Both the position numbers and the translations under genes were made by a program. Below the pieces are notes generated by a model that ran no database searches, was not told the DNA's origin, and saw only the letters and a list, made by a program, of their open reading frames with translations. Source: Escherichia phage A4. Taken from it: a stretch of DNA of 64,000 nucleotides. The stretch lies in the sequence record ON286972; one strand, 5' to 3'. Shown here piece after piece: positions 7,767 to 63,341 of the stretch (positions are counted from its first letter, which is position 1; each line of letters starts with the position of its first letter).

Positions 7767-7824
7767 TATAAGTAGTGATATAATTGTTGGTATGGAATAA
7801 TAACTAACACAAGGAGCGTGTAGA

Positions 7825-10709: not shown

Positions 10710-11851
10710 GTAATTTACGAGAAATATACAATGATTTAATGGAACTATGTGAATCTAATGATGCATTTTTCTATATAGATCACACAAGCCCTGGTGGTGG
10801 TTTATACCGTGTATTCACCTATCGTCTGGCATCTTATACCGATTTCACAAATAAAAATGCACTAGAAACTCGTGGTTCTATGTGGGAAATCGATTCCAAC
10901 GGAATTATGATTCGTTGTGCAGCACGTACAATGAAAAAGTTCTTCAATGCATATGAAAACCCGTACACAATGTTCAGTACTGATACGACATGTGATGATA
11001 TTGCAGTTGTAATGCCTAAACTTGATGGTTCTATCATCAGCACATTCCGTGATAACGATGGTGAAATCCGTTGCAAATCACACACTTCGTTATCTTCTGA
11101 CCATGCTATTAACAGTACTCGACTTTTGAACGAGAACCAAAATCTCTATCAATACATTGATGAAGCAGACCGTTTGGGCTATACTGTGAATCTGGAATAC
11201 ACAAGCCCAGAGTATCGAATTGTGTTACCATATCAGGTGGAACAGTTATTTGTTCTTAACGTTCGTCATCGTATTAGTGGTGAGTTGTTATGCGGTAAAG
11301 CACTACGTGATAAGTTTCCATGCCTTTCACAGTACAGTACTAATATGACAGGTAATGACATTCATCATACATTCCCGATTATGCCTACATTTAAAGAGTC
11401 AATCGATAAAGTACGTTCTATGATTGACATTGAAGGTTTTGTGTGTATAATGAAAGATGGTACAATGTGCAAAATCAAAACTGACTGGTATTGCTCTTTG
11501 CATTTAACAAAAGATTCCATTCTTATTGATTCCCATTTATATGAAGCTGTACTGACTGGTGCAAGTGATGACTTAAAACAATTGTTCAGTACTGATACAT
11601 ATGCAATGGATAAGATATTAAGAATGGAACAATTGGTATTTTCGTGCTATAATGCTTTACAAGATGAGGTAGAAAGCTTCGTCCATGCATACAAGCACTT
11701 AGAGCGAAAGGAATTCGCTCAAAAGGTTCAGCAAGATTTACCTAATGTATTGAACCGACAAGGCTTGGCCTTTGCGTTGTACAATGGCAAAAGTGTCGAT
11801 TATAAAGAGACTTTACTAAAGTACTACAAAGATGTACTAAAGGATTTTTAG
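10706..11851 (+). CDS. rnlA: RNA ligase 1 (T4 Rnl1-like)
   Basis: Extended similarity to recalled T4 RnlA: FFY.D..S..G...R.F.Y..AS, RG.MFE, KFFN..ENP, GYV..MKDG...KIK.DWY.SLH.TK, GASDDLK. Confidence 0.9.
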   Translation: MSNLREIYNDLMELCESNDAFFYIDHTSPGGGLYRVFTYRLASYTDFTNKNALETRGSMWEIDSNGIMIRCAARTMKKFFNAYENPYTMFSTDTTCDDIAVVMPKLDGSIISTFRDNDGEIRCKSHTSLSSDHAINSTRLLNENQNLYQYIDEADRLGYTVNLEYTSPEYRIVLPYQVEQLFVLNVRHRISGELLCGKALRDKFPCLSQYSTNMTGNDIHHTFPIMPTFKESIDKVRSMIDIEGFVCIMKDGTMCKIKTDWYCSLHLTKDSILIDSHLYEAVLTGASDDLKQLFSTDTYAMDKILRMEQLVFSCYNALQDEVESFVHAYKHLERKEFAQKVQQDLPNVLNRQGLAFALYNGKSVDYKETLLKYYKDVLKDF

Positions 11852-36547: not shown

Positions 36548-36576
36548 TTGACATTAAATGTGTTCATTGCTATAAT
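36548..36576 (+). promoter_or_regulatory. Consensus sigma70 promoter
   Basis: TTGACA, 17 nt spacer, TATAAT, about 30 nt upstream of 36609. Confidence 0.65.
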
Positions 36577-36608
36577 GAACACACCATTATCGAAGAAGGA
36601 AGTAAATC

Positions 36609-36797: not shown

Positions 36798-36902
36798 TTT
36801 AACGCGTTTTTTTGGAGTTCTTAATAAATACTTTCATAAGAATAATAATACTTTTTATGAATTTAAAAAGAACTCCATGTGTTATTTCAGTAAGTTTTTC
36901 AT

Positions 36903-36928
36903 CCCTGTCAATTGGCAGGGATTTTTTA
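36903..36928 (+). terminator. Rho-independent terminator
   Basis: Hairpin ccctg-tcaattgg-caggg followed by ATTTTTTATT. Confidence 0.55.
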
Positions 36929-45980: not shown

Positions 45981-46125
45981 TATTATTTCTGAAAAGATAC
46001 AGAAACGTGGAAATGAGTGGGTTGTTACTGACCACACAGGGAAGAAAGTTCTCGGTCGTCACCCAACCAGAAAAGAAGCACTTAAACAATTAAGAGCAGT
46101 TGAATTTTCTAAACACGGCGGTTAA
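45967..46125 (+). CDS. Small hypothetical protein (52 aa), below the ORF-track cutoff
   Basis: ATG 6 nt after AAGGAG; MRYLDIISEKIQKRGNEWVVTDHTGKKVLGRHPTRKEALKQLRAVEFSKHGG. Confidence 0.4.
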   Translation: MRYLDIISEKIQKRGNEWVVTDHTGKKVLGRHPTRKEALKQLRAVEFSKHGG

Positions 46126-46133
46126 TATGAAGA

Positions 46134-46157
46134 AGCACCCTTTGGGTGCTTTTTTTA
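46134..46157 (+). terminator. Rho-independent terminator
   Basis: Hairpin agcaccc-ttt-gggtgct followed by TTTTTTT. Confidence 0.6.
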
Positions 46158-46164
46158 TACTATT

Positions 46165-46172
46165 ATAAATAC
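46165..46172 (+). promoter_or_regulatory. T4-type late promoter TATAAATA
   Basis: Exact TATAAATA about 30 nt upstream of the 894 aa gene. Confidence 0.55.
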
Positions 46173-46202
46173 ACTATGGATATCTAGATAAAAGGGATAT
46201 AT

Positions 46203-48887
46203 ATGGCAAAGAAAATATATGGTGGCATTGATGTTACACATAATGTAACAGTCAAAGGTAAGAGAAGTGTTCAGAGCATCAATGATAACGTATTTGATGA
46301 AAATGGCAATCTCACAATAGATGCATATACACAAGATGATATGCTGGAAATGGTTGGTATGTTACCCATTTCTCGTTATGGTACACAAAACTATCTACCT
46401 GCTGGTGTCAATGGTACAACAGTTGGTTCTTCAGAAAATACTAAATCCAGAAATACAAAATTATTTTTGGAAGATGATAACACTTTAGTAATGCTACGTC
46501 CTGGTACAAATGGGAGTACACAAGGGGTTTATTATAGTTATATGACCCAGGCGGTTGGTACAACAAATACAAGTCGTATGGTTAATACTACTCGTGCATA
46601 TAAACCAAATTATTTTGGTGATTATTATGCATACCATTTATATTCATGTAGTGATGATATTACATGTGGTATGGCAAGTAATGGTTCAATTAATAAACTT
46701 TTTGTATCCGTTAATAATGGCACAATGAACGATGCAATGCATACCGGAATTTTAATTGATGACTATGCTTCAGTTAGGCCAATTGGTGAAGTACAATTTG
46801 TTATTCGTGCAGAAGATGGTGCATTATACTTTTTCAGTTTAGATACACCAAGCAATACTCTTAAAATATCAGTGGTTAAAGTTACTTTTAGTCCAAGTAA
46901 TAACCCAGGTGGTGGTACTTATAGTGTTACTAGAATTACTGGTTGGGCCACAAGAACTTTTTATAATGCAATGGTATATGATGACAATATTGTTCCAACT
47001 ATGAAAATAAATTCAACAAATACCAATGATAATCCATACGTTTTAATTCCAAGTGGTATTATTGGGTTTGGTATTTATATGACAGACCCAGATTTATATG
47101 TTGCACAGAAATCAGGTACAACTACATTTAAATTTAGATTATGTGGCGATATGTGGATGACTAACGGCAGATATGATATACGACCACAACACAGTTTTAG
47201 TATGACTTTTGATATTGCTACTAAGCAATGTGCATTGGATAATATGACAACTACTACACCAGTTGCTGTTTATGATAATGGTACAAGCATGAATGAATCT
47301 GGTCCATGTTTAACAACTGACCCGTTTTATCTTCACGCAGGTGGACGTAACATTTTCAGTAATTATTGCTATGTTCCATCAACTGGGGATGCGTTTTGCT
47401 CATTTTCACCAAACCTTGCAGAAGCATTGAATATATCATATGCAAAATACCCACCCAAATCATTATTTGATTTAATGGATGTTAGAAGTGTATCGGCAAC
47501 TGATTTTATTAATGGTGTCGTATCACCAAGATTTGGTTCAGCAGTTGGTTCATTCCAAGTGGGTGTGGAGTTATTACCAAATAACAGTACTAAGCAATAT
47601 TCAAGACGTTCAGGTGATGGTCGTTTTTATCCATCCTATGCTGTACATAAAGCTACCCCGAACTTTACATTTAAGTCTCTAGACTATGGTAATGTTCTTG
47701 GCTATGAACCAACACCAGACCGAGCGTTTATAACTACACCAGAATCTAGAATTTTTATAAGTTCAATTTCTGGTTCAACGGTAACGACTAATGGTGGTGT
47801 TTTGGTGGCTGATAATAGAACATCAACGCCAATTAGTTTTGATTATAAAGGTAATGTACTGAATAATGGTACAATCAGTATGTCACAAGATATAATGAAT
47901 TCCATTAGAAATTCCGAATTTGCTAAAGTTGCTAGTTCATGGAATATATCACCAGCATCAATAAAAACATTATCTGTATTTGTTCCACAACAAACTGATA
48001 TTCCTGTTTTTGGTGTTCTTGCAGCATCTACTACAGCCCGTGGTCTATATATTCGAGTTGTTGAATTGAATGTCAATACAAGAACTGGTGATATTACAAC
48101 ATGGTCGTTCAAACGTTTAGTACATGAAAGTGTTCAAGCTGGGGATTACAAAACAGATACCGCATATCATCTTGATAGTGGAAGTATTGGTATTACTATA
48201 TATGATGCGGGTTCTTTCTACTTCATTGGTGGTGGTATTCCTGGTTTCTTTAATACAGTTGGTAATACAAACTCTCCATTTTTCCGTGCTACAGTGGATA
48301 AAGCGACAGCCCAATTTAATAATTTCCATATAGCTGGTGCACGTCCGATCTATGCATTAGATGGTCAACCATTCGCTTTACCTAACATTGGGTTTGGTAT
48401 TCTTCAAAGTATAGATAATAATAACAAAACAATTTTTAGAACATATGGTACAACATTAGCGGATTATAATGCATGGACTGATAAAGGAAATCCATTTATA
48501 TGTCTTGTTTCCCAAGATGTTGCTCAAGGTTTTATTATATACTTCACCGAAGAGACACCAGTACTGATATCCGGTAAACACTATACATTACCAATATCAA
48601 ATATAGATTTAACAACTGTGAAAGCAAATCCTGCCAATACTACATTTTATGTGTATATTAAATTAGTACAGGGTATTGCAAACTATCATATATCAACAAC
48701 TGAATTAGCTGAAACTCATTCAATATTCTGGATTGGTACAGTGAAAACTGATAATTTACAAATAACCGAAATTAATATAGAAAAACGTTCTCGTTTAGAC
48801 CTGTTTGGTTCATCATTCAACGCTGCCGGAAGTTCCTTCCCAGTAAGTTCTGGGTTCCCTTCAAGTTCTGGTAATGTGAATTGGTAA
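46203..48887 (+). CDS. Large late (structural, fibre-like candidate) protein, paralog A
   Basis: 894 aa behind a late promoter; N- and C-terminal regions similar to 49499-52240. Confidence 0.6.
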   Translation: MAKKIYGGIDVTHNVTVKGKRSVQSINDNVFDENGNLTIDAYTQDDMLEMVGMLPISRYGTQNYLPAGVNGTTVGSSENTKSRNTKLFLEDDNTLVMLRPGTNGSTQGVYYSYMTQAVGTTNTSRMVNTTRAYKPNYFGDYYAYHLYSCSDDITCGMASNGSINKLFVSVNNGTMNDAMHTGILIDDYASVRPIGEVQFVIRAEDGALYFFSLDTPSNTLKISVVKVTFSPSNNPGGGTYSVTRITGWATRTFYNAMVYDDNIVPTMKINSTNTNDNPYVLIPSGIIGFGIYMTDPDLYVAQKSGTTTFKFRLCGDMWMTNGRYDIRPQHSFSMTFDIATKQCALDNMTTTTPVAVYDNGTSMNESGPCLTTDPFYLHAGGRNIFSNYCYVPSTGDAFCSFSPNLAEALNISYAKYPPKSLFDLMDVRSVSATDFINGVVSPRFGSAVGSFQVGVELLPNNSTKQYSRRSGDGRFYPSYAVHKATPNFTFKSLDYGNVLGYEPTPDRAFITTPESRIFISSISGSTVTTNGGVLVADNRTSTPISFDYKGNVLNNGTISMSQDIMNSIRNSEFAKVASSWNISPASIKTLSVFVPQQTDIPVFGVLAASTTARGLYIRVVELNVNTRTGDITTWSFKRLVHESVQAGDYKTDTAYHLDSGSIGITIYDAGSFYFIGGGIPGFFNTVGNTNSPFFRATVDKATAQFNNFHIAGARPIYALDGQPFALPNIGFGILQSIDNNNKTIFRTYGTTLADYNAWTDKGNPFICLVSQDVAQGFIIYFTEETPVLISGKHYTLPISNIDLTTVKANPANTTFYVYIKLVQGIANYHISTTELAETHSIFWIGTVKTDNLQITEINIEKRSRLDLFGSSFNAAGSSFPVSSGFPSSSGNVNW

Positions 48888-48897
48888 TGGAGATAAT

Positions 48898-49488
48898 ATG
48901 GCTTATAAATTTAGATCTGATGTGGAAGCGTATGCTTCCGTTAAATCACAAGGAAAAAATACTGGGACCACGATAACTGATCGTTCTGGTAATGTGTATC
49001 AAGCTGATGCTAATGGGAATGTTGATGTACCACTCATGAGTACAGATGATGTGAATTACATTACCAGTTCCTTTCCGTTATCACAATTTGGTTCACTTTA
49101 CAGTACTGAACCATTGGGTATTTCTGCTGCTGGTTTCAATTTAACTTTCAGTAAAGAATTACCATTGTTCATGGCGGGAGCGGTTTATACCCTCCCTGCT
49201 AAAACAATAACGGACCCAGGAGTTACTGGAACTAATATTGAAACACATTATGTATATGTTATATTAGATGTTGGGGTAGCTGACTACCTCATTTCTAAAA
49301 CTCAACGCCCTGAAAGTAGTGTTAATATGTACATAGGACAACTGACAGTTTTCCCAGATGGCATTACAGGGGTCAGTATAAATAAAGTGTCAAGATTTGA
49401 CGACTTCAGAGTAAGTGCTACAAAAATTGGTTCAGCTATCCCTATCAGTTCTGGTACACCAGATGTGAATAGTGGGACAGAATGGTAA
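48898..49488 (+). CDS. Short protein carrying the C-terminal module of the large late paralogs
   Basis: 196 aa; C-terminus aligns with the last ~100 aa of both flanking large proteins and ends in W. Confidence 0.55.
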   Translation: MAYKFRSDVEAYASVKSQGKNTGTTITDRSGNVYQADANGNVDVPLMSTDDVNYITSSFPLSQFGSLYSTEPLGISAAGFNLTFSKELPLFMAGAVYTLPAKTITDPGVTGTNIETHYVYVILDVGVADYLISKTQRPESSVNMYIGQLTVFPDGITGVSINKVSRFDDFRVSATKIGSAIPISSGTPDVNSGTEW

Positions 49489-49498
49489 AGGAATATAT

Positions 49499-52240
49499 AT
49501 GGCTTCGAGACGAATTATAGGAAACGCAGAAATACTAGGGAATTTGAAAATTAATGGAAAGTATGCATTACGTTCCTTTAATGGATTCCCTGCTGATTCT
49601 GCTGGTAATATCACTTACCAATATTATGACAAAGCGGAAGTGGATCAAATGTTTGATATGCTTCCTGTTTCAAGGGTAGGTGATCAAGATTACCTACCGA
49701 TGAGTATTAACGGTACATTTGAAGGTGCTTCTTCCTTTTCATTTGCAAAAATAATGCAACCTTGTATCATTGAAAATGATGGTACTGGTGTAATTTTACG
49801 TGCAGGTACAAATGGAAGTTCTTATGGTTTCTATTATGCTTATATAAAAAATATAAGAGATATAGAAACATTAACTCAAGATAATATAATTACAACCAAC
49901 ACGATGTATAGACCTTCTGTGCTACCAAGTACTGATTACATTTATGAATTTTATGGGTCAAATGCATATGAATTACTATTTTGGGAATCAACTGATAGAG
50001 CATCATACTACCTTACATTAACAAATGAAACATTAAATGAATCAGCACACAAACATTGCAGAATTCCAAAAACAGCAATAACAAATAAACCAATCTATGC
50101 ACACATCGTAAATGATTCAGTTTATATATGGTGTATGGATTCAAGTGTATTGAGTAGTGTTCGCGGGTGTGCATTTATCATATACACAGTACCTTTAACT
50201 GCATTTAATACTGGTTCAGTTTCGACAGTAACACAGATTAGTGGTTATTCAGGAAGAACTATAAGAAATGTAACATACACTGCATCTAATAATATTCGTG
50301 TTTATGATAGTTATTCAGCGTTGGGTTCAGGTGGTGATGCACTAATAGCATATGATAATGGTGTTTCCAGAATAGATTATTGGGAAAATAACGCATTTAA
50401 TACCCAAGCAGTTCTTAGTCCAGATGGTACAAAAATAAGAGTAGCGATATATCCAGGGTTTCGTGTCTTAACCGCAACAAAAACATCTGGTGTATATGCA
50501 CTTGGTATCAGCTTTACATATGATATCAGTACTAAAACAATGACACTTGACGGTTCTGAACGTGGTCCAATCAGAGTATCAGCTAATGCATCAACTGGTA
50601 GTATAACAGTGAGTAACCCGTTTTCAATCAATATGGAAAACTTTACAGGGTTTTATGATGGTGCACTTGGTAACTATGGTTCAATCTGTCAAACTTCTGA
50701 TGGTTTTGTTTTCACTACCAAAGCAAGATGGTCATCCATGCCGACCTATGCAGTACAAACATACAAAGTTTCTGGTACACCTTATGATAGTTGGGTTGCT
50801 AAAACACGTACTGGTAGTAATTTAAAACGCGTAGAAGTAATGCCCGTTTATGGTTCACCTGTAGGTGAAAACTTAATAGGTGTTCGTTTCGTTGATAAAC
50901 GTAAGATACTTGTTGCATGTTCTGGTACTGCTGATGGAATTTCTTATGGTTATGATAGTACAGTTTTTACTGAAATAGGTGAGAATCCAACTTATAGTTA
51001 TAAAAACTTGGAACAAAATACCACAATGAATGGTTTTGCACCATCAGGTAATAGACACTATTTAAGTACTGATTACAAATATGCAGGTATGGTAACATTG
51101 GTTGATGCCAATGGAAATGTCAGCACTTATGGATCTTCTTTAATAGAAGGTATCGATAAACCAGCTTATGGAAAATTCGACCCTGTTACAATGGACTTTA
51201 ACAGTGATAGATATGAAATTTCAGGAACTACATTATCAGGTATAGGTTATAATGCCGTTGCTAAAGCTGGATTGACTGGAATAACTGAACATAAAACTGT
51301 TTTTTATTATGTACCTGATACTACATATTCTAAATCTATTGCAGTCACTTCTGCACTAAACGGTACTACCAACGTGTGTTATATTATTTTTTCCGAAATA
51401 TCATGTAGTGCACTGGGTACAAGTGGTACTATAATTTTACGTGGTATTAGTGTTGATACAGCAAGATATACATCAATCACGAATACATTCCAAATTTCAC
51501 CAAATGAAATGATCAAACGTTGGGCTGGTATGACTGTTGCTAAGTTTAGTGGTTTTAACTACTTAGGTGTGAACATTTTATATGGCATTGATACCCCAGG
51601 TTGGACTCGTTATCCTAACATGATTGCTAAAGTGAAAAATGGTATTATTTCAAGTCAACGATATATGGAAACAACTTATATTTCAAACGCACAATTTGAT
51701 ATAGGTACAATTCCAGGGATTGGGTTTGGATATTACCAAATGAACAAAAACGATTATCAAACTAAATCAGTTTTTGCTGTATGTGGTACTACTGAAGCAG
51801 ATATGGATAAACTAATATCTGGTAATGAAACGATATCACAGTACTTAGTTGTTGCTTCACAGGATGTGGCACAAGGGTTCAACGTGTACTTTTCACAAGA
51901 AGTACCAGTTTTCTTGGGTGGAAAGTTTGCAAAGATACCACCGACTATGATAGACTTATCTACCATAAGTACTACACCAGATAATTCAACATTCTACATA
52001 TATGCGGTTATGGATAGAGGTACATCTACAGCTTCGTATCAGATATCACTATATCAATTATCAGAAACTATGACATCAACCTACATTGGTAAGATAGTAA
52101 CTGATGCTAATGGTATTGCATCAATCGAGTCTGAAAAAGTGTCCAGATTCTTGCTATACCGCCCAAGTACCTACAATCGTGGTTCTGCTATCCCAGCTAG
52201 TTCTGGGTTACCATCACAATCTGGTACTCGTTGGAGTTAA
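49499..52240 (+). CDS. Large late (structural, fibre-like candidate) protein, paralog B
   Basis: Track ORF 49472-52240 trimmed to ATG 49499; shares MLP.SR.G.Q.YLP, LRAGTNGS and DVAQGF..YF motifs with paralog A. Confidence 0.6.
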   Translation: MASRRIIGNAEILGNLKINGKYALRSFNGFPADSAGNITYQYYDKAEVDQMFDMLPVSRVGDQDYLPMSINGTFEGASSFSFAKIMQPCIIENDGTGVILRAGTNGSSYGFYYAYIKNIRDIETLTQDNIITTNTMYRPSVLPSTDYIYEFYGSNAYELLFWESTDRASYYLTLTNETLNESAHKHCRIPKTAITNKPIYAHIVNDSVYIWCMDSSVLSSVRGCAFIIYTVPLTAFNTGSVSTVTQISGYSGRTIRNVTYTASNNIRVYDSYSALGSGGDALIAYDNGVSRIDYWENNAFNTQAVLSPDGTKIRVAIYPGFRVLTATKTSGVYALGISFTYDISTKTMTLDGSERGPIRVSANASTGSITVSNPFSINMENFTGFYDGALGNYGSICQTSDGFVFTTKARWSSMPTYAVQTYKVSGTPYDSWVAKTRTGSNLKRVEVMPVYGSPVGENLIGVRFVDKRKILVACSGTADGISYGYDSTVFTEIGENPTYSYKNLEQNTTMNGFAPSGNRHYLSTDYKYAGMVTLVDANGNVSTYGSSLIEGIDKPAYGKFDPVTMDFNSDRYEISGTTLSGIGYNAVAKAGLTGITEHKTVFYYVPDTTYSKSIAVTSALNGTTNVCYIIFSEISCSALGTSGTIILRGISVDTARYTSITNTFQISPNEMIKRWAGMTVAKFSGFNYLGVNILYGIDTPGWTRYPNMIAKVKNGIISSQRYMETTYISNAQFDIGTIPGIGFGYYQMNKNDYQTKSVFAVCGTTEADMDKLISGNETISQYLVVASQDVAQGFNVYFSQEVPVFLGGKFAKIPPTMIDLSTISTTPDNSTFYIYAVMDRGTSTASYQISLYQLSETMTSTYIGKIVTDANGIASIESEKVSRFLLYRPSTYNRGSAIPASSGLPSQSGTRWS

Positions 52241-52247
52241 AAAATTA

Positions 52248-52276
52248 AGCCTGTCTATTGACAGGCTTTTCTTTTA
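52248..52276 (+). terminator. Rho-independent terminator
   Basis: Hairpin agcctgtc-tatt-gacaggct followed by TTTCTTTTAT. Confidence 0.6.
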
Positions 52277-52286
52277 TCCGTATAAT
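52258..52286 (+). promoter_or_regulatory. Consensus sigma70 promoter overlapping the terminator hairpin
   Basis: TTGACA (inside the hairpin), 17 nt spacer, TATAAT, about 20 nt upstream of 52309. Confidence 0.6.
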
Positions 52287-52308
52287 GCTAAAAAACTAGG
52301 AGGAAACT

Positions 52309-52869
52309 ATGGTACAATCACGTTTTAGACCACCGCTGTCACCAGCACAGTTACAACGTTTAAAAGAAAAAGAGCAGCACTTTCAGAATACCCTAGTAGT
52401 TCGTTTGCTATGCAAAAGTGTAACTCTTAAAGATTTTGTGAAAACCGATAATGATCGTAAATCACTTATCGAACTTAAGTACAAGTTAAGTAAGCATAAA
52501 CTATATGGATTACTGGCAGAATACACCCAAAATCCATTCAGTGATCGTTGGTCTATGGTTCAAAAAAAACTGTGGGGTGGTGATGAAGAATTCATACTAC
52601 GCGATTTAAAAAATGCAATCATGTTTAAGGTTGAGTATACACCAGCAGGGATTGAACACAGAACCGAAGAAACTATCATTCAATCAAGAGATTTGTCATG
52701 TGTTGTTTCTTCAAACTTCGGTGTTCATTATGATATGCTTGATGATGATGAGTTAATGATTCTGTTCCATGTCATTATTGGTGCTGAAGATATTAAAGAA
52801 AAGTTATCACAAATTGAAGAAGAACAGCGTAAATTCAAAATCCAAAAGAGAATAACTGATTTATATTAA
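52309..52869 (+). CDS. Early paralog triplet, member 1
   Basis: ~170-186 aa; shares TD.DR...I..K..LS.H N-terminal motif with the next two genes. Confidence 0.55.
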   Translation: MVQSRFRPPLSPAQLQRLKEKEQHFQNTLVVRLLCKSVTLKDFVKTDNDRKSLIELKYKLSKHKLYGLLAEYTQNPFSDRWSMVQKKLWGGDEEFILRDLKNAIMFKVEYTPAGIEHRTEETIIQSRDLSCVVSSNFGVHYDMLDDDELMILFHVIIGAEDIKEKLSQIEEEQRKFKIQKRITDLY

Positions 52870-52878
52870 GAGGTTACT

Positions 52879-53379
52879 ATGTTTTTCAAAAAGAAAAATA
52901 ATGATCACAAAAGAGAAAATGTAGAGTGGTGTACATTAATTCTTCCAGTACTGATGAAAAGCTATTCTTTAAAAGAAATTATCCGTACTGATGAAGATCG
53001 TAGAACTATACTTAAAATTAAAGAAATGTTAAGTTCTCATTCTCTAATGAAACTAATCACAGACCTAGTTAAAGAACCATACGGTGAACGTTGGTTATAT
53101 GAACCAGTATTCATATATGGTAATCATATCAACCGTGTAAAATTGTTTGATACCGAAACTAAGGTTGATTTTAATGCAGTAACATATTCATCTAAAGATT
53201 ATGATGAAAAACATACATTTGTTTATATTAACGGAGATGCGAATATTCTACCTAAACATGAACAAATGTTTTTGTTTCATTTACTCGTTGCACTTCGTGA
53301 GCTTGAAACAAAGTACAAGAAGTTAGAATACGAGCAGCATAAACTTAATGAATTTAATAAATTAAAAGGATTATACTAA
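52879..53379 (+). CDS. Early paralog triplet, member 2
   Basis: LKEIIRTDEDRRTILKIKEMLSSH. Confidence 0.55.
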   Translation: MFFKKKNNDHKRENVEWCTLILPVLMKSYSLKEIIRTDEDRRTILKIKEMLSSHSLMKLITDLVKEPYGERWLYEPVFIYGNHINRVKLFDTETKVDFNAVTYSSKDYDEKHTFVYINGDANILPKHEQMFLFHLLVALRELETKYKKLEYEQHKLNEFNKLKGLY

Positions 53380-53882
53380 TGTTCTTCGGTAAACATAAAG
53401 TAAAAGATGATGGTATTCTTCAGTACTTAGTTGCGTTGATTTTAAACAAAAGTACTTTATTAGTACCTAATATTAAATCAGACAAAGATCGCAGAGAAAT
53501 TATTCAAAACAAATATCTTCTTTCAAAATGTGATCCTGTTATCTATGCATTTTGTAAGTACTGTTCAAAAAACTTGTTCAGTATTCATGTAGATTTTGAA
53601 AGACACGAGAGTAGAACAGATTCTAGGATCAACGTGTATATAATTAATGATTTAAATCGAGGGAATCGAGGGTTCATGTTCTGGATGGACGGACGTGATA
53701 TACGTGTGCGTATTAAAATGTCGGTTGGGTGGAAGGATTTTTCAACTTCTGTATCTGATTATCTTGTACTTCACGCACTATATAACAGTATTACTAACGT
53801 GAAAGATATCGACAAGAAAATTCAGGAACAAAAAGAACTGGATGATGCAAAGAACGAATACTTACAATATTACAGGAGTTAA
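53379..53882 (+). CDS. Early paralog triplet, member 3
   Basis: IKSDKDRREIIQNKYLLSK; ATGA-type overlap. Confidence 0.55.
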   Translation: MFFGKHKVKDDGILQYLVALILNKSTLLVPNIKSDKDRREIIQNKYLLSKCDPVIYAFCKYCSKNLFSIHVDFERHESRTDSRINVYIINDLNRGNRGFMFWMDGRDIRVRIKMSVGWKDFSTSVSDYLVLHALYNSITNVKDIDKKIQEQKELDDAKNEYLQYYRS

Positions 53883-53885: not shown

Positions 53886-54287
53886 ATGGATCTTGATGAT
53901 GTGTATAGCACCATAAGACAGATGGATTCGTATAAAAAAGTATATAGTGGTTACAAGAGTGATAAACAATTTTATGGAATCGGGGAGTATGATGTAATAT
54001 CATTCGAATACGATGATACTGGTGAAAGTTCCATTAATATTGTTTGCCCTCGTGACCGTGAAAATAACTTCATGTACGTTGAAATCAATAATGATGGTTT
54101 ACACTTTACTAAAATATTAAATGGTGGCAAACAATCTATTTCTCTGGATTTATCCGAAGAAGAAAAGTTCTTTCAAGAAGATACTATAATCAATCTTGGT
54201 TTTAGTTTATCAGAATACAAAGTTCTTCATAAAGATTTCATGAAGTACTATAATGGGTTTCTTAAGGAGCTAACATTACATCTATGA
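53886..54287 (+). CDS. Hypothetical protein (133 aa)
   Basis: Track ORF. Confidence 0.5.
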   Translation: MDLDDVYSTIRQMDSYKKVYSGYKSDKQFYGIGEYDVISFEYDDTGESSINIVCPRDRENNFMYVEINNDGLHFTKILNGGKQSISLDLSEEEKFFQEDTIINLGFSLSEYKVLHKDFMKYYNGFLKELTLHL

Positions 54288-55525
54288 ATAATAACAAATT
54301 TCTTGAACAAACAATTGTGAAGCACTTAGCAGGTTCACAAGCGTATGGAACCAGTACACCTGAAAGTGATACGGATTATCGTGGTATTTTTCTTGCTAAC
54401 AAAGAATTCATCCTTACGCCTTTTTATAATGTAAAGGAAGTTTCTGATTCAAGAGAAGAAGATACTAAATTCTATGAACTAAACCAGTACTTAAGACTAT
54501 ACACAGAGGCTAACCCAAATATCCTTGAATCACTATGGGTCGATCCTGAACACATCGTAGAAAGTACTGAGATCTATGATTATCTACGCACTTTCAATCA
54601 ACAATTGCTTAGCTCAAAGATTGCACACTCTTATACTGGTTATGCCTATAATCAGGTTAAGCGTATGTCTAATCACCACGGGTGGATGGATAAAGAGCGT
54701 ATTGCTGAAAAACGTCTAAATGAAATCTTAGAAGATTTTCCAGTAGATGAAACTTTAGCATGGATGTATGAAAACTTCCCACACTATTTGGTAGAACGTT
54801 TAGATACTTCTAAACTACATCCATTTAATGCTAAGAAAATAGATTTTGAAAAATACATGCGTGATACTTCATTGCAGTTAGTTTCAACTAATCCGTTGAA
54901 ACAGTATCATTTTGTACGTTTAGTACATAATTACAGTACTGATAAAGTACTAGACCGTGATTTCAACTTATTGGATTATAACAATGGGTACGAATTAATT
55001 CATTACGGTGAAAATATCTTTGGTGTTATTATCAATCCTAATGAAAGTACAGTTAACGCGGATGGTTCTTTACGTTATTTCAACAAAGAACGCAGTACTG
55101 AAGAATTGAAAGTACGACCTGAACTCATTGTTAAATTCAATGAAAAAGAATACAGTGAGAACAGTGAGAACCGTAAAAGTTATCACAAATGGAAAGAGAA
55201 TCGTAATGCTAAACGTGCAATTCTTGAATCCAAACACGGCTACGATTGCAAACATGCTATGCATACGATCAGACTTTTGAATACAGCCGAAGAAGCATTA
55301 CAAAGCGGTATTATTCTGGTGAAACGTCCTGATGCTGATATGCTAATGGATATTCGCAACGGTAAGTGGAAATATGAAGAAGTCATGGAGTACTTTAACG
55401 ATAAGGTAAAATATATTCGTGAAGTACTTTATCCTAAGTCAGTACTCCCGAAGAAACCAGATATTGCATTAGCTGCGAAAGTACTGTTAGATATTCGCGA
55501 AATGCAGTGGTACGGTAAGAAATAG
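54284..55525 (+). CDS. Pol-beta-superfamily nucleotidyltransferase-domain protein
   Basis: N-terminal LAGSQAYGTSTPESDTDYRGIF (GS...D.D nucleotidyltransferase signature). Confidence 0.5.
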   Translation: MNNNKFLEQTIVKHLAGSQAYGTSTPESDTDYRGIFLANKEFILTPFYNVKEVSDSREEDTKFYELNQYLRLYTEANPNILESLWVDPEHIVESTEIYDYLRTFNQQLLSSKIAHSYTGYAYNQVKRMSNHHGWMDKERIAEKRLNEILEDFPVDETLAWMYENFPHYLVERLDTSKLHPFNAKKIDFEKYMRDTSLQLVSTNPLKQYHFVRLVHNYSTDKVLDRDFNLLDYNNGYELIHYGENIFGVIINPNESTVNADGSLRYFNKERSTEELKVRPELIVKFNEKEYSENSENRKSYHKWKENRNAKRAILESKHGYDCKHAMHTIRLLNTAEEALQSGIILVKRPDADMLMDIRNGKWKYEEVMEYFNDKVKYIREVLYPKSVLPKKPDIALAAKVLLDIREMQWYGKK

Positions 55526-55609: not shown

Positions 55610-56239
55610 ATGGCTATTTCCTTTTACACCACAATGGAAGTTACTGGTGTTGTTAAATTCTCGAAAGCTGAATTTAAAAAACCAATATTAACATTTGATA
55701 CATCGTCTTTTAATATTATCAGAACACACGAAATTTCTGGTGCAGATAATCATTTAAGTAATTCAGTGATTACAACACTAGGAACAGATAGCAACCAATC
55801 GTTACAGATTGCTGCGTGGGCTGGGATGACAGAGACTAATAACGGTGTTAAAATACAAGCACGCACAACAAATGACACAAACAGTACTGAATGGGTTACA
55901 TTATATGATAGCTCCAACAGTACTGTGACAGTATTACCACAAGCTGATAGTTACGATATAGATACCAGTACTGGTAATAAAGTTTTTAATTTAACTCTAA
56001 ACAAACCAAACACTACAATTAATATCCTTCCTAATGCTAAAACTCAAGTATATGATTGCACTGTTATCATAGAACAAGGCACAGGTTCAAATCTTGTAAG
56101 CTGGAGTTCTAATGTGAAATGGTCATTCAATCGTCAAGTTCTTCTTTCATATGAACAATCCCAAAAAGATATAATTTCCCTAGAAACCTATGATGGTGGT
56201 ATTACATGGTACGGTGCTCTTATTCGAGCAGGGGTATAA
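55610..56239 (+). CDS. Hypothetical protein (209 aa), Ser/Thr/Asn-rich
   Basis: AAGGATGG RBS. Confidence 0.5.
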   Translation: MAISFYTTMEVTGVVKFSKAEFKKPILTFDTSSFNIIRTHEISGADNHLSNSVITTLGTDSNQSLQIAAWAGMTETNNGVKIQARTTNDTNSTEWVTLYDSSNSTVTVLPQADSYDIDTSTGNKVFNLTLNKPNTTINILPNAKTQVYDCTVIIEQGTGSNLVSWSSNVKWSFNRQVLLSYEQSQKDIISLETYDGGITWYGALIRAGV

Positions 56240-56240
56240 A

Positions 56241-59024
56241 ATGACAAAATATAACATAGATAACGTTATACAATTACTTTATGGTCATCATAGATTTTTA
56301 GAAAGAAATACAGGTGATACAGTAGATCCAACAAAACAGCATTACGTAATAAACGATCAAGGTGTATTAGCAAATAACCGTCATTTTATTAATTTCAGTG
56401 CAATGGAAGGTCAACCAAATGGTGACGGGACAACTGAGGGTCAAAGTCTTTTGATCATTGGTTATATCTATGCTTATCTTGCAACTAATGATGAAATGTT
56501 TTTGGATAAAGCTAAGTATTATTGGGACGCATATCACAAATATTTTTATGCTAATAGACAGTTTCCAGATCCACCACGTCCATTACAATGTAACTGGATT
56601 GTGAATGCTAAAGAACCAATACTCGCCAACTGGCCTTTGTCAGATGATGATTGGCCTACTCACGGTGGATTCAAAGGCGTAGAATTTAATTTCATAGATG
56701 GTCAATGTCGTATTCCACATGATGAGCCGTATTATGGACAATTCCTTGATAAAGTTACTTTTGCATTCAAAGGTGCACTTGCATGGAATCAGATTAACGC
56801 GTCAGTACAGGCAATATTACCAGATGGTAGTACTGACTGGGATAACCCTGGTGAACAATATGATGTTGATTGGGTAATTGATTACTTAGGACGTAAAGTA
56901 GATTATAATGGGGATATTATCAGTACTGGACACTATGAGTCAGAAAAAGGAACAGTACAGGTAAAAGACAGAACATTAAATGGTGTTTATAAATTAAACT
57001 TCGCTAATAGACAACCTGTTGAATTTGGTGGTACGTACATCGCACGTAATCAGATGCAACACAACCGTCCATTACATGTTCCTATTACTCTTGACTTTGC
57101 TGATAACGCATCTGATGCTGAATTATGGTTCAGTGATGCTTCTTACTTGTTATATAAAATAACAAAGGAAAGAAAACATTATCTTGGATGGAAATGTTCT
57201 TTACTTACTTGTTATGCATATGGTGACATTGATGCATTTGATAAATTCTTCAGACAAAGTACTAAAGTATCTTCGCCATTTACTGATGGTATTTCATATG
57301 ATTATTTTTATCCAAGTGATGCGATTGCTACATATTCCCGCAACGTTGATGGTTATATCAGAATACGTCAGGAACAAAGTGCACAAAGTACTCTTGAACA
57401 GCAAGCAATATGGTTCAGACTAAATTCTGATTCGAAATTGGTTGTTGATTATGGTGGAATATGTGATGATGGTTCTCCATTAACATTTAAGCCAGTACTT
57501 GACTTATCAAAAACAAAAAGTGATAATGATGCTATAAGATACCGTTGTGGTTTACCACTGAGTACCAGTACTGAAATTAAACACTCTGAAACTCCATTAA
57601 GTGTTTTTGTCCGTGAGAAGAAAGATGATGGTAGCTCTTATATTATGGCTGACAGCCGTTCAGTTGTTGATTATGGGGGAGCCGTATATAAAATGGAATA
57701 TAGTACTGATATTCTTGGTTCCAGAGTTGATACTATATGCGATATCAGTACTGGTGAAGACGGTGGTATAGTTGTAGGATTTTGGTTATTAGATTCAGAA
57801 AAAGCACCTATTAATTCTTTTACATATCGTTCATATGAAGATGATTTTAATATCAGAATCGAAGATGATAATGGATGGCGTTGGTGGTGGATGATTCCTG
57901 CAACACATGGTGAATGGACCACAATAGAATTGAAACCAGAGGATTTACATCTTTCTGGATATCAGCCAAATCACAGCGATGATCCTGACCCAGAAGCCCC
58001 AGTATATAGTGAATTGGAAGATTTCACTCTATTACCCGATACAACACCAATCAATGGAACTGCTAAAATCCAATGGTATTGTATAAATGATATTCCACCA
58101 CTATATACATCCGAAAATGGCGATGACTATACAATGACATTCTCTATTACTGTTTCTGGAACAGCAGCATATTCGGCGTATTTGGGGGATTGTGTAATTA
58201 AAGATTATGAATTAAATTCGTTACGTTACACTCCTGGTACTATTCCATTTTCAAATATTACTGATCCATATGCAAATCAGTACGGTGGGTGGCGTGGACT
58301 ACCATATCCTGGATACCAATACCCAGTAATTTACTGCTTTAAAGACGAACCAGTAGACCATACAAGAATGGGTAATATGTTGGATTTTATGAAAGATTCA
58401 CAAGAATGGTTTACAAACCAATTCGGTACAGTTGGTCCTTGTGCACAGGCATATGTATGGAACCGCTGGGACAACCTCAAATATGGTGAACCTGATACGT
58501 TTACAATGTTACACTGGGGTGATGAAGCATGGAGTGGATATGAACCACGTGCATTCTTTGGTGCGGCTCGTTGCTGGCAAGAATTAGCAGAGCGTGGTGA
58601 AGAACCACCAGTTGAATTGGTTGAGTTCTGTGAGAACTGGATTAACTTTTTAATTCAATTCCAGGATGAAAATGAAGGTCGTTCACCAACAATCTTTAAT
58701 AAAGATGGAACAGTTGAAGGCCCAGCATGGGATTTCACAGGACATATGTGTGGATTGTGGTTGGCAGGTGGTAGTGCATGTGGCTTAGCTGGGTGCAAGA
58801 TTGAACGCTTACCAGAAATGGTTGACAGATTGGTTGATGAATTGCAAAATAACTATGTAATAACAAAACCAGGTTCACCGATGAACGGCTCATGGAGTCC
58901 AGCAGTTCGAGAAGATTCAGACAATGGGATGTTCTTTGGATTTTGGGCTGGTGAAATCATGCGTGGTCTTGGTTTGTACTCAATGTACAGACTGAACTCA
59001 CACAATCGTTATAGTGAATTATAA
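56241..59024 (+). CDS. Large hypothetical protein (927 aa)
   Basis: Track ORF 56190-59024 trimmed to ATG 56241 immediately after the upstream stop. Confidence 0.55.
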   Translation: MTKYNIDNVIQLLYGHHRFLERNTGDTVDPTKQHYVINDQGVLANNRHFINFSAMEGQPNGDGTTEGQSLLIIGYIYAYLATNDEMFLDKAKYYWDAYHKYFYANRQFPDPPRPLQCNWIVNAKEPILANWPLSDDDWPTHGGFKGVEFNFIDGQCRIPHDEPYYGQFLDKVTFAFKGALAWNQINASVQAILPDGSTDWDNPGEQYDVDWVIDYLGRKVDYNGDIISTGHYESEKGTVQVKDRTLNGVYKLNFANRQPVEFGGTYIARNQMQHNRPLHVPITLDFADNASDAELWFSDASYLLYKITKERKHYLGWKCSLLTCYAYGDIDAFDKFFRQSTKVSSPFTDGISYDYFYPSDAIATYSRNVDGYIRIRQEQSAQSTLEQQAIWFRLNSDSKLVVDYGGICDDGSPLTFKPVLDLSKTKSDNDAIRYRCGLPLSTSTEIKHSETPLSVFVREKKDDGSSYIMADSRSVVDYGGAVYKMEYSTDILGSRVDTICDISTGEDGGIVVGFWLLDSEKAPINSFTYRSYEDDFNIRIEDDNGWRWWWMIPATHGEWTTIELKPEDLHLSGYQPNHSDDPDPEAPVYSELEDFTLLPDTTPINGTAKIQWYCINDIPPLYTSENGDDYTMTFSITVSGTAAYSAYLGDCVIKDYELNSLRYTPGTIPFSNITDPYANQYGGWRGLPYPGYQYPVIYCFKDEPVDHTRMGNMLDFMKDSQEWFTNQFGTVGPCAQAYVWNRWDNLKYGEPDTFTMLHWGDEAWSGYEPRAFFGAARCWQELAERGEEPPVELVEFCENWINFLIQFQDENEGRSPTIFNKDGTVEGPAWDFTGHMCGLWLAGGSACGLAGCKIERLPEMVDRLVDELQNNYVITKPGSPMNGSWSPAVREDSDNGMFFGFWAGEIMRGLGLYSMYRLNSHNRYSEL

Positions 59025-59055
59025 GTTGACAACCAACAAACAGTGATATAAACTA

Positions 59056-59087
59056 AGAGAACTTCATGAGAGGTTCTCTTTTTTTTA
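59056..59087 (+). terminator. Rho-independent terminator
   Basis: Hairpin agagaac..gttctct followed by TTTTTTTT. Confidence 0.55.
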
Positions 59088-60257: not shown

Positions 60258-60869
60258 ATGTCTAAATATCATGTTTATTATGTAACCAAATTGAGTTTAC
60301 TAGATGAACTCAATCATACTAGTACCAAAATGAAACGTTATACTTATAATGGTATTACTTTCAGATACTTTCCACAAAAAGTACTAACATTCGTTAAGAA
60401 TTGTAAGTGCATTGCTTGTGGCATCGAGGCTACAGAAGTTCGAATCGAACGTTCCAACTGTAGTGATCCGGTATATGGTAAACCGCATTTAAATGTGTAT
60501 GCAGTATGTGGTCTTTATGAAGTTATGATGACTGTAGATCATAATCATCTTGCATCTAAAGGTGGTGCTGATTTGGAGTCAAACTTTAATACAATGTGTG
60601 CGAGATGTAATCAGTTGCGTTCAAATAAAACTGAAACGGTTGATGAATTCCTTGAGAAAGTCAAAAACCGAAATCTACTTGAAGAACATATGAATCGTTA
60701 TTTCAATAAGATTGAGAAGGAAAGTAAACGTCCTACACCAGAAATGCTCGAAGAACGTAGATTGCGTCAAGAGCTATGGGATAACGATCATCTGTGGCAT
60801 GTTCGTGAGTACGGGCGACACATGAAAGCATTAAAAAAGGCACAAAAGCTGTTGGATAAACATGAGTAA
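60258..60869 (+). CDS. HNH endonuclease
   Basis: CKCIACG ... VDHNHLASKGG ... NTMCARCN: HNH motif with flanking zinc-binding Cys pairs. Confidence 0.75.
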   Translation: MSKYHVYYVTKLSLLDELNHTSTKMKRYTYNGITFRYFPQKVLTFVKNCKCIACGIEATEVRIERSNCSDPVYGKPHLNVYAVCGLYEVMMTVDHNHLASKGGADLESNFNTMCARCNQLRSNKTETVDEFLEKVKNRNLLEEHMNRYFNKIEKESKRPTPEMLEERRLRQELWDNDHLWHVREYGRHMKALKKAQKLLDKHE

Positions 60870-60882
60870 TATGTTATAATAG

Positions 60883-60908
60883 GGACTTGAGAAATCAAGT
60901 CCTTTTTT
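60883..60908 (+). terminator. Rho-independent terminator
   Basis: Hairpin ggacttga-gaaa-tcaagtcc followed by TTTTTT. Confidence 0.6.
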
Positions 60909-63296: not shown

Positions 63297-63326
63297 GGAG
63301 AGTCATTTTGACTCTCCTTTTCTTTT
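63297..63326 (+). terminator. Rho-independent terminator
   Basis: Hairpin ggagagtc-atttt-gactctcc followed by TTTTCTTTT. Confidence 0.6.
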
Positions 63327-63341
63327 ACTATAAAAAAGAGG

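What the first reader, a model, noticed from the sequence alone, without database searches (positions are those of the whole stretch)
52248..53882. Triplicated early gene family behind a terminator-embedded consensus promoter
Three consecutive ~165-185 aa paralogs (shared N-terminal TD.DR..I...K..LS.H motif) follow a perfect TTGACA-17-TATAAT promoter whose -35 lies inside the terminator hairpin that ends the late cassette. This is a compact late-to-early boundary with an expanded early family of unknown function.
Basis: seen in the sequence. Interest (0 to 1): 0.4.

Follow-up and report, generated by a model that had tools for sequence, protein, structure and literature searches.

The report
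Terminator-embedded early promoter plus orphan paralog trio
In a 355-kb E. coli jumbo phage (A4), a terminator hairpin that contains a host-type promoter separates a virion-protein operon from an operon that begins with three anciently diverged copies of a small protein of unknown function; the DNA element is of a kind already described in T4-like phages, so the finding is real but mostly ordinary.

Summary
A 9-bp terminator hairpin (52247-52268) contains the -35 of a perfect TTGACA-17-TATAAT promoter (52258-52286). A strong SD follows, then three tandem ORFs (186, 166 and 167 aa) that are real but very diverged paralogs.

The window is Escherichia phage A4, a RaK2/121Q-like jumbo phage. The hairpin-plus-promoter arrangement is conserved at the same gene junction in 11 genomes from about five groups. 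The spacer is always 17 bp and the stem shows compensatory changes. RaK2 and Muenster keep both parts but about 50 nt apart. This matches the PeSL composite promoter/terminator cassettes of T4-like phages, which include a subclass where the stem-loop overlaps the -35.

The upstream genes are virion structural proteins; the CBB_149 ortholog was detected by mass spectrometry, and a T4-type late motif sits at 46164. The late-to-early boundary is therefore well supported in silico but not shown experimentally.

The "triplication" is ancient. Orthologs of each copy exist in 121Q (gp502-504), and the clade carries 2-4 copies at this locus. The family (phrog_18641/phrog_7868) is restricted to this clade, with 44 matches (one of them spurious) among 1.84 billion 50%-identity cluster representatives. 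It has no Pfam, PDB or defence-database match. A confident AF2 model has no structural neighbour outside the family. Biochemical function remains unknown.

The parts
46129..46155 (+). Intrinsic terminator hairpin after nrdG. It marks the left edge of the late structural cassette.
   Evidence: It is also the left junction of the cassette shared at about 91% nt identity with phage ph0011.
46164..46171 (+). T4-type late promoter motif TATAAATA, 32 nt upstream of the ATG at 46203.
   Evidence: The motif is under-represented in the window (4 found, about 11 expected). Its late function is inferred from the T4/CBB consensus.
46203..52240 (+). Late cassette of three related virion structural genes: 894 aa, 196 aa and 922 aa (phrog_3573/phrog_26864).
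   Evidence: The 922-aa protein is the ortholog of CBB_149, listed as a structural protein in the CBB paper's annotation table.
52239..52246 (+). A/T-rich tract AAAAAATT, about -55 to -47 from the predicted start. It is UP-element-like and also forms the upstream A-tract of the hairpin.
   Evidence: Read from the sequence. CBB RpoD-like promoters carry the same AAAAA prefix.
52247..52268 (+). Terminator stem-loop with a 9-bp stem and loop TATT, followed by the T-tract TTCTTTT.
   Evidence: In 7 aligned homologous sequences, 100% of cells pair and 4 of 9 pairs show changes on both sides.
52258..52286 (+). Sigma70-type promoter TTGACA-17-TATAAT. The -35 lies inside the loop and 3' arm of the hairpin. 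Predicted start about 52292-52294.
   Evidence: The 17-bp spacing is conserved in 11 genomes. Activity not tested.
52298..52303 (+). Shine-Dalgarno AGGAGG, 5 nt before the ATG of ORF1.
52309..52869 (+). ORF1, 186 aa. Family type A (phrog_18641), ortholog of 121Q gp502.
52879..53379 (+). ORF2, 166 aa. Family type A (phrog_18641), ortholog of 121Q gp503. This is the protein modelled with AF2.
53379..53882 (+). ORF3, 167 aa (A4_500). Family type B (phrog_7868), ortholog of 121Q gp504 and RaK2 ORF002. Its start overlaps the ORF2 stop (TAATG).
53886..54287 (+). Fourth cistron, 133 aa, acidic (phrog_22376). Not a family member.
54284..55525 (+). RlaP-like (RNA-repair-associated Pol-beta superfamily) nucleotidyltransferase. 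A conserved downstream member of the operon.
   Evidence: Synteny.

Best explanation
The element at 52239-52303 is a PeSL-type composite regulatory cassette. It combines an intrinsic terminator stem-loop with a near-consensus host sigma70 promoter whose -35 hexamer lies in the loop and 3' arm of that stem-loop.

**How it most likely works**
- As RNA, the hairpin and its U-tract stop transcripts coming from the upstream late operon, which encodes virion structural proteins (894, 196 and 922 aa).
- As double-stranded DNA, the same bases plus the T-rich spacer and TATAAT recruit E. coli Esigma70, probably helped by the upstream A-tract. Transcription should start at about 52293.
- The resulting polycistronic mRNA carries ORF1-ORF2-ORF3, a 133-aa protein and an RlaP-like nucleotidyltransferase.
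- The cassette therefore insulates an early or host-RNAP-dependent operon from late read-through.

**The three proteins**
- ORF1-3 are ancient paralogs that have not been lost. Type A and type B split before the RaK2-like clade radiated. Type A then duplicated in the A4/Asteriusvirus ancestor.
- They are soluble proteins of about 20 kDa. The predicted architecture is a conserved four-helix N-terminal region carrying nearly all invariant residues, a length-variable four-stranded beta region, and a 40-residue C-terminal helix ending in an invariant Tyr.
- My working inference, at low confidence, is that they are early accessory proteins. They would bind host or nucleic-acid-related targets, possibly acting together, in an operon with an RNA-repair or counter-defence flavour.

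**What is shown and what is inferred**
- Shown: sequence features, conservation, covariation, paralogy and orthology, clade restriction, absence of known homologs.
- Inferred: promoter and terminator activity, early timing, any biochemical function.
For: - Promoter and hairpin geometry, with statistics.
- The same junction in A4, L008, 121Q, JNE01, Munch, fENko-Kae01, CBB, GAP32, fHe-Yen9-04, pEa_SNUABM_12 and Serratia BF carries TTGAC[A/G/C] inside a terminator hairpin, with a -10-like hexamer exactly 17 bp downstream, although the stem sequences differ.
- The stem covaries: 100% of cells pair, 4 of 9 pairs change on both sides, and 0 of 500 shuffles reach the score.
- RaK2 and Muenster keep a separate TTGACA-17-TAAAAT promoter.
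- PeSLs with promoter and terminator activity shown by reporter assays, including a subclass overlapping the -35, are described in PMC2839356 and PMC4122927.
- The upstream genes are structural and carry a late motif.
- Downstream operon content: RlaP NTase; Thg1, DUF4326 and an N4-cytosine methyltransferase interleaved with family members in CBB, GAP32 and Eneladusvirus.
- Family facts.
- AF2 model pLDDT 85.7, pTM 0.76.
- CBB_150 and CBB_153 carry no structural flag in the CBB annotation table.
Against: - No transcript data exist for A4 or any close relative in the searched literature, so timing and promoter use are untested.
- The CBB authors' MEME-based promoter list, as far as it was shown, does not include the site upstream of CBB_150.
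- The family always sits just downstream of fibre-like structural genes, which is also the typical position of fibre-assembly chaperones.
- No homology, structural match or defence-database hit supports any specific function.
- Stem-loop sequences of the composite elements in this window are not similar to one another, unlike classical PeSLs.
Confidence: 0.65

Rival explanations
1. ORF1-3 are assembly chaperones for the fibre-like structural proteins encoded just upstream. On this view the promoter match is secondary, or only supplements late read-through.
For: - Size (about 165-190 aa) and position immediately 3' of large fibre-like genes resemble tail-fibre assembly genes (general knowledge of T4 gp38, lambda and Mu Tfa).
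- The association with upstream fibre or structural genes holds in every genome examined, including RaK2, where the upstream genes are different tail-fibre proteins.
- A4, 121Q and Munch have three phrog_3573-type genes and three small paralogs.
Against: - A strong, covarying terminator separates them from the structural genes, and a sigma70 promoter is conserved in all lineages.
- The family is absent from other jumbo phages that carry phrog_3573 homologs, such as Ea35-70-like phages and Goslar.
- RaK2 has the family but no phrog_3573 homolog at this locus: its ORF533 and ORF534 are unrelated and tblastn returned one Klebsiella record, fENko-Kae01.
- In CBB, GAP32 and Eneladusvirus the copies are interleaved with Thg1, DUF4326 and a DNA methyltransferase rather than morphogenesis genes.
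- No Pfam tail-assembly family is hit.
Confidence: 0.12
2. The promoter is real but not early-specific. It would be a constitutive or middle-class promoter, still used when late transcription is on. The hairpin would then mainly prevent promoter occlusion by upstream transcription.
For: - The operon contains maintenance-type functions: an RlaP NTase, and further downstream an ACP-like protein and an Rz-like spanin.
- Nothing is known about sigma70 shut-off in this clade. The clade encodes a gp55-like late sigma factor.
Against: - Near-consensus sigma70 promoters with an upstream A-tract are the hallmark of immediate-early transcription in T4-like phages. They are the class assigned to presumed early regions in CBB.
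Confidence: 0.15
3. The TTGACA/TATAAT match is fortuitous, and the hairpin is only a terminator.
For: - AT-rich genomes produce many promoter-like matches. In 45-64 kb, 87 were found against 92 expected at the loose threshold.
- GAC in a stem only requires GTC opposite it.
Against: - The match is 12/12 and intergenic, against 0.17 perfect sites expected per window.
- TTGAC plus a -10-like hexamer at exactly 17 bp recurs in 11 genomes with different stems. In Eneladusvirus the hexamer moves into the loop.
- RaK2 retains a stand-alone promoter.
Confidence: 0.05

Closest known systems
PeSL (promoter-early stem-loop) composite promoter/terminator cassettes of T4-like phages RB49/phi1, PST and nt-1 (Arbiol et al. 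2010, PMC2839356; Comeau et al. 2014, PMC4122927)
   Same: - The layout matches: an AT-rich stretch containing the upstream stop codon, a stable stem-loop acting as terminator, a near-perfect TTGACA-N17-TATAAT promoter, then the SD and start codon of the downstream gene.
- A described subclass has the stem-loop overlapping the -35.
- Other subclasses also occur in this window: a stem-loop over the -10 at 36548, and stem-loops just after the -10 at 59026 and 60853.
- The cassettes are associated with gene-content plasticity and mosaic junctions nearby.
   Different: - The host phage is a RaK2/121Q-like jumbo phage rather than a T4-like myovirus of the kind in which PeSLs were described.
- Stem sequences of the elements in this window are not a conserved repeat (no G4...C4 type motif), so recombination between copies is not evident.
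- This copy marks a conserved late-to-early junction kept across genera, rather than flanking a variable ORFan.
- Promoter and terminator activity and recombination were not tested here.
PHROG families phrog_18641 and phrog_7868 (unknown function); 121Q gp502-504, RaK2 ORF001/002, CBB_150/153/155/156
   Same: ORF1 and ORF2 match phrog_18641 (E = 5e-33 and 9e-24). ORF3 matches phrog_7868 (E = 2e-27). Each also cross-matches the other family. The proteins are syntenic orthologs.
   Different: Nothing differs. These are the same uncharacterized family, and no member has a reported function.
Tail-fibre assembly chaperones (T4 gp38/gp57A, lambda and Mu Tfa type)
   Same: Small proteins encoded directly downstream of fibre-like structural genes.
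   Different: - There is no sequence or structural similarity.
- A terminator separates them from the structural genes, and they have their own sigma70 promoter.
- They are interleaved with nucleic-acid enzymes in related phages.

Membership tests
PeSL composite promoter/terminator cassette | Near-consensus sigma70 early promoter (TTGACA-N17-TATAAT) | tested here: met
   A 12/12 match at 52258-52286.
PeSL composite promoter/terminator cassette | Stable stem-loop adjacent to or overlapping the promoter boxes | tested here: met
   A 9-bp stem at 52247-52268 overlaps the -35. It folds at -18.9 kcal/mol with z = -3.4, and the stem covaries.
PeSL composite promoter/terminator cassette | AT-rich region with the upstream stop codon 5' of the -35, and the SD and start codon of the next gene at the 3' end | tested here: met
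   TAA at 52238-52240 lies within AAAAAATT. AGGAGG is at 52298-52303 and the ATG at 52309.
PeSL composite promoter/terminator cassette | Demonstrated promoter and terminator activity | not testable with these tools
   Needs reporter fusions, in vitro transcription or 5'/3' end mapping.
PeSL composite promoter/terminator cassette | Many sequence-similar copies dispersed in the genome, enriched in plastic regions next to ORFans | tested here: inconclusive
   Four other composite elements lie in the 64-kb window (36548, 59026, 60853, 63297). Their stems are unrelated in sequence, and only this window of the 355-kb genome was available.
PeSL composite promoter/terminator cassette | Mediates recombinational module shuffling | tested here: inconclusive
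   In ph0011 the A4-type late cassette (about 91% nt identity) is bounded on the left at the 46129 hairpin and on the right about 50-70 nt upstream of this hairpin. Lineage-specific insertions lie downstream. This is suggestive, but the junctions are not inside the element.
PeSL composite promoter/terminator cassette | Resides in a T4-like myovirus, the group in which PeSLs were described | tested here: not met
   The phage is Escherichia phage A4, a relative of Asteriusvirus and RaK2. It is filed as the same kind of element in a new host lineage, not as a member of the RB49 or PST repeat families.
phrog_18641 / phrog_7868 protein family | Significant full-length match to the family profile | tested here: met
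   E = 5e-33, 9e-24 and 2e-27. A custom HMM gives E of about 1e-45 for all three.
Tail-fibre assembly chaperone families | Sequence or profile similarity to known Tfa, gp38 or gp57 families | tested here: not met
   No Pfam, NCBIfam or PDB hit for any of 41 family members. Foldseek against PDB gives a best E of 0.04 and TM of 0.27.
Known anti-defence or defence proteins (PADLOC) | Profile match | tested here: not met
   No hit at E <= 0.1.

The most novel reading that the evidence does not exclude
The two or three co-translated paralogs assemble through their long C-terminal helices into a hetero-oligomeric early complex with a previously unseen fold. The complex would act on host RNA or tRNA, or on defence pathways, together with the adjacent RlaP-like nucleotidyltransferase (and Thg1, DUF4326 and a methyltransferase in sister genera). 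This would define a new jumbo-phage counter-defence or RNA-maintenance module. The conserved N-terminal K-S...D..R...KY.LSK cluster plus the C-terminal Tyr would form its active or binding site.
Probability: 0.12. Interest if true: 0.55.

Novelty: new member of a known kind. Interest (0 to 1): 0.28.

Why it matters
The result gives a precise, testable transcription-unit boundary in a poorly studied group of jumbo coliphages. Those phages include candidates for therapy, such as the 121Q, PBECO4 and RaK2 relatives.

It also shows that PeSL-like composite promoter/terminator cassettes extend beyond classical T4-like phages. Here one is kept for long evolutionary periods at a conserved late-to-early junction.

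Finally, it flags a clade-restricted protein family with an apparently novel fold, always present in 2-4 copies. That family is a sensible target for early-gene functional screens. None of this overturns current understanding.

Tried and rejected
- **Function by sequence homology.** Pfam, NCBIfam and PADLOC on the three proteins gave nothing. Pfam on all 41 family members gave only scattered single hits at the level expected by chance. A PDB profile search gave nothing below E = 0.38.
- **Function by structure.** The first AF2 model (ORF1, 8-sequence alignment) was poor, with pLDDT 59.6, and its Foldseek matches were meaningless. The second model (ORF2, 41 sequences) was good, with pLDDT 85.7. 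It has no PDB neighbour (best E = 0.04, TM 0.27). In BFVD it matches only family members from related jumbo phages.
- **Fourth cistron as a paralog.** The 133-aa protein is not a fourth paralog: hhalign probability is 0.3%.
- **Recent tandem duplication.** Rejected. There is no DNA-level repeat, and each copy has its own ortholog in other genera.
- **Word-indexed protein searches.** These returned only near-identical proteins. The search for related loci could not use the divergent alignments.
- **Spurious hit.** P0011 (1157 aa, 14 repeats) in the exhaustive search is a repetitive false positive.
- **Literature.** No transcriptomics for phAPEC6, Asteriusvirus or Sharanji was found.
- **Rfam.** No family matches anywhere in the window.
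- **A general design of all terminators?** Among about 24 terminator-like hairpins in the window, only this one carries a strong embedded promoter.
Full report
**Source and context**

ORF3 is 100% identical to hypothetical protein A4_500 of Escherichia phage A4, found on a 355,528-bp contig. tblastn places the three ORFs at only 27-40% amino-acid identity to syntenic genes of Asteriusvirus (121Q gp502-504, PBECO4, phAPEC6 and others). The Klebsiella RaK2 group has two copies, ORF001 and ORF002, at the very start of its deposited genome.

The neighbourhood is conserved. In order it contains:
- nrdD and nrdG;
- three related large or truncated proteins (894, 196 and 922 aa; phrog_3573/26864);
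- the small paralogs;
- a 133-aa acidic protein;
- an RlaP-like nucleotidyltransferase (PF10127, E = 2e-17);
- then, in A4 and 121Q only, two tail-fibre genes;
- an ACP-like protein, an Rz-like spanin and an HNH endonuclease.

**Observation check**

The hairpin AAGCCTGTC-TATT-GACAGGCTT lies at 52247-52268. AAAAAATT precedes it and TTCTTTTAT follows it. As RNA it folds at -18.9 kcal/mol, z = -3.4.

TTGACA (52258-52263) occupies the last two loop bases and the first four bases of the 3' arm. After a 17-bp spacer comes TATAAT (52281-52286). This is the only 12/12 site in 45-64 kb.

Four perfect sites occur in the window against 0.17 expected. Only two of them, 36548 and 52258, are intergenic. AGGAGG at 52298-52303 precedes the ATG at 52309.

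The three ORFs are real paralogs. BLASTP gives 1e-15, 3e-6 and 5e-3. Each matches both phrog_18641 and phrog_7868. A family HMM scores all three at about 1e-45. No nucleotide-level repeat remains.

**Is the composite element functional? Comparative evidence**

I extracted the intergenic region between the last structural gene and the first family member from 12 genomes. Eleven of them have TTGAC[A/G/C] inside a terminator-type hairpin, followed at exactly 17 bp by a -10-like hexamer (TATAAT, TATACT, TATTAT, TACACT or TACAAT). These eleven are:
- A4 and the metagenomic relative L008;
- 121Q and JNE01;
- Salmonella phage Munch and Klebsiella phage fENko-Kae01;
- Pectobacterium phage CBB and Cronobacter phage GAP32;
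- Yersinia phage fHe-Yen9-04, Erwinia phage pEa_SNUABM_12 and Serratia phage BF.

The stems differ between lineages. In Eneladusvirus the hexamer has moved into the loop (AAGCCCCT-TGAC-AGGGGCTT).

I aligned seven sequences that share the same register. All 63 cells pair, and 4 of 9 pairs show changes on both sides. The covariation score is 0.53 against 0.22 in shuffles (0 of 500 reach it), and the signal collapses when the partners are slid. The three pairs fixed by GAC/GTC never vary.

Mimasvirus and Eneladusvirus add a second tandem TTGACA-17 promoter about 65 nt downstream. RaK2 and Muenster are the informative exception. Their terminator has an unrelated sequence without TTGAC, and a free-standing TTGACA-17-TAAAAT sits about 50 nt downstream.

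Both a terminator and a sigma70 promoter are therefore selected at this junction. Their fusion is the commoner solution.

**Late upstream, early downstream**

The 922-aa protein is 36% identical over its full length (E = 9e-173) to CBB_149. The CBB paper's annotation table names CBB_148 and CBB_149 'Structural protein' and flags them 'Yes', whereas CBB_150 and CBB_153 (family members) carry no flag. I read the flag as mass-spectrometry detection; the column header was not shown.

A terminator (46129-46155) follows nrdG. Next comes TATAAATA (46164-46171), 32 nt before the first structural gene. The motif is otherwise depleted in the window, with 4 found against about 11 expected.

The CBB and GAP32 literature assigns ATAAATA-type motifs to late structural genes and RpoD-like promoters with an A-rich prefix to presumed early regions. 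AATAAATA also precedes the tail-fibre gene at 55610.

Early timing of ORF1-3 is thus a reasonable inference from promoter class. I found no transcript data for this clade.

**What it is in terms of known elements**

Arbiol et al. 2010 and Comeau et al. 2014 described PeSLs in T4-like phages. These are composite cassettes made of the following parts:
- an AT-rich stretch that includes the upstream stop codon;
- a stem-loop that terminates transcription;
- a near-perfect TTGACA-N17-TATAAT promoter;
- the SD and start codon of the next gene.

The authors demonstrated promoter and terminator activities. They distinguished five subclasses by stem-loop position, explicitly including overlap with the -35 or the -10.

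The A4 element fits this description. The window also holds other subclasses:
- 36548-36583, where the stem-loop spans the -10;
- 59026-59080, where the promoter is followed immediately by a stem-loop. In 121Q the promoter at this position is perfect;
- 60853-60904;
- 63297-63335, with TTGACT in the hairpin.

There are differences from classical PeSLs:
- The stems are not a conserved repeat.
- The phage is a RaK2-like jumbo phage.
- This copy marks a deeply conserved junction rather than a variable ORFan.

There is a hint of module exchange. Phage ph0011, otherwise 121Q-like (88% nt to 121Q downstream), carries the A4-type structural cassette at about 91% nt identity. The left junction is at the 46129 hairpin, and the right junction lies about 50-70 nt upstream of the 52247 hairpin.

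**The protein family**

An exhaustive HMMER scan of 1.84 billion proteins (one representative per 50%-identity cluster) found 44 proteins at E <= 1e-3. All are 115-209 aa except one spurious repetitive hit.

tblastn with distant members shows that the family spans the whole RaK2-like clade: CBB, GAP32, Yersinia, Erwinia and Serratia phages, and Munch. It is always at this locus. Copy number is 2 in RaK2, 3 in A4, 121Q, JNE01 and Munch, and 4 in CBB and fHe-Yen9-04.

A neighbour-joining tree separates type A (ORF1, ORF2, gp502, gp503, RaK2_001, Munch_172) from type B (ORF3, gp504, RaK2_002, Munch_174, CBB_153). The ORF1/ORF2 duplication falls in the ancestor of A4 and Asteriusvirus. The 'triplication' is therefore old, and all copies have been retained.

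An AF2 model of ORF2 built on a 41-sequence alignment is confident, with pLDDT 85.7 and pTM 0.76. It shows four N-terminal helices, a four-stranded beta meander and a 40-residue C-terminal helix. It has no PDB neighbour. In BFVD it matches only family members.

Nearly all conserved residues lie in the helical N-terminal part: L25, K27, S28, L31, D38, R41, K48, Y49, S52 and K53. A C-terminal Tyr is also conserved. The beta region varies from 48 to 88 residues in length.

The proteins are soluble and neutral to basic, with pI 7.8-9.1. ORF2 and ORF3 overlap as TAATG, which suggests translational coupling.

There is no Pfam, NCBIfam, PADLOC or PDB hit.

**Mechanism and rivals**

The best-supported account has three parts:
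- The hairpin ends late structural transcripts.
- The same DNA recruits host Esigma70 to start an operon encoding ORF1-3, the 133-aa protein and the RlaP-like NTase.
- The paralogs are non-redundant early accessory proteins, possibly acting together.

In sister genera the copies are interleaved with a Thg1-like tRNA-His guanylyltransferase, DUF4326 and an N4-cytosine methyltransferase. That points to nucleic-acid or counter-defence roles rather than morphogenesis.

The main rival is fibre-assembly chaperones. Position and size favour it. Four points argue against it:
- the conserved terminator and promoter separate the family from the structural genes;
- the family is absent from other phages with phrog_3573 homologs;
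- the family is present in RaK2, which has no phrog_3573 homolog at this locus;
- CBB_150 and CBB_153 carry no structural flag in the CBB annotation table.

A constitutive or middle-class promoter, or a fortuitous match, are lesser alternatives.

**Verdict**

The regulatory element belongs to a described kind (PeSL). The gene family is an ancient, clade-specific orphan rather than a recent expansion. Interest is modest.

Noticed in passing
window 46125-52200 (compare L016 = ph0011 591-6680): The whole late structural cassette is about 91% nt identical to Escherichia phage ph0011. The flanks are only about 66-81% identical, and ph0011 is 121Q-like (88%) from just before the hairpin onward. This looks like a cassette swap. 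Its left junction is at the 46129 terminator and its right junction about 50-70 nt upstream of the 52247 hairpin.
   Followed up: partly
window 59026-59080 (121Q: L001 13732-13795): TTGACA-17-TAAACT is followed immediately by an 11-bp terminator hairpin, after the 944-aa tail-fibre gene. In 121Q the same position has a perfect TTGACA-17-TATAAT followed by the hairpin. A start inside the 5' arm would let promoter-derived transcripts escape termination.
   Followed up: partly
window 36548-36583: This is the second intergenic perfect sigma70 promoter (TTGACA-17-TATAAT). Its -10 lies in the loop of an 8-bp hairpin, GTGTTCAT-TGCTATA-ATGAACAC, which corresponds to the PeSL subclass that overlaps the -10.
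   Followed up: no
window 60853-60904 and 63297-63335: Two further promoter-like plus hairpin composites. The first is TGGATA-16-TATAAT followed by a 10-bp hairpin. The second is hairpin GGAGAGTCA-TTT-TGACTCTCC containing TTGACT, followed by CTTTTCTTTTAC and TATAAA.
   Followed up: no
window 55610-59024 versus L008 7180-7192: The two tail-fibre genes that follow the nucleotidyltransferase in A4 and 121Q are absent in the 70%-identical metagenomic relative L008, and also in RaK2, Munch and CBB. They look like a late module, with an AATAAATA motif at about 55574, inserted into an otherwise sigma70-driven operon.
   Followed up: partly
window 49472-49499: The 922-aa ORF is listed from GTG 49472 and overlaps the 196-aa gene. 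Its alignment to CBB_149 begins at residue 12, so the true start is probably the ATG at 49499 (M-ASRRIIG).
   Followed up: no
window 48898-49488: The 196-aa protein is homologous to the C-terminal portion of the flanking 894-aa and 922-aa proteins (phrog_26864/phrog_3573). It is a stand-alone C-terminal module kept in 121Q, Munch and L008.
   Followed up: no
window 3805-3833 and 11424-11451: Two perfect TTGACA-N16/17-TATAAT sites lie inside ORFs (3483-4022 and 10706-11851). They could be internal promoters or chance matches.
   Followed up: no
L009 (CBB) 4473-7925; L011, L012, L013, L014: In Mimasvirus and Eneladusvirus the family has four copies. They are interleaved with a Thg1-like tRNA-His guanylyltransferase and a DUF4326 protein and are followed by an N4-cytosine DNA methyltransferase. 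Two tandem sigma70 promoters precede the first copy.
   Followed up: partly
window 36901-36922: The terminator hairpin ATCCCTGTC-AATT-GGCAGGGAT closely resembles the 52247 hairpin core (CCTGTC-TATT-GACAGG). It carries TTGGCA and only a weak -10 (TAAACT) that overlaps the next start codon.
   Followed up: no
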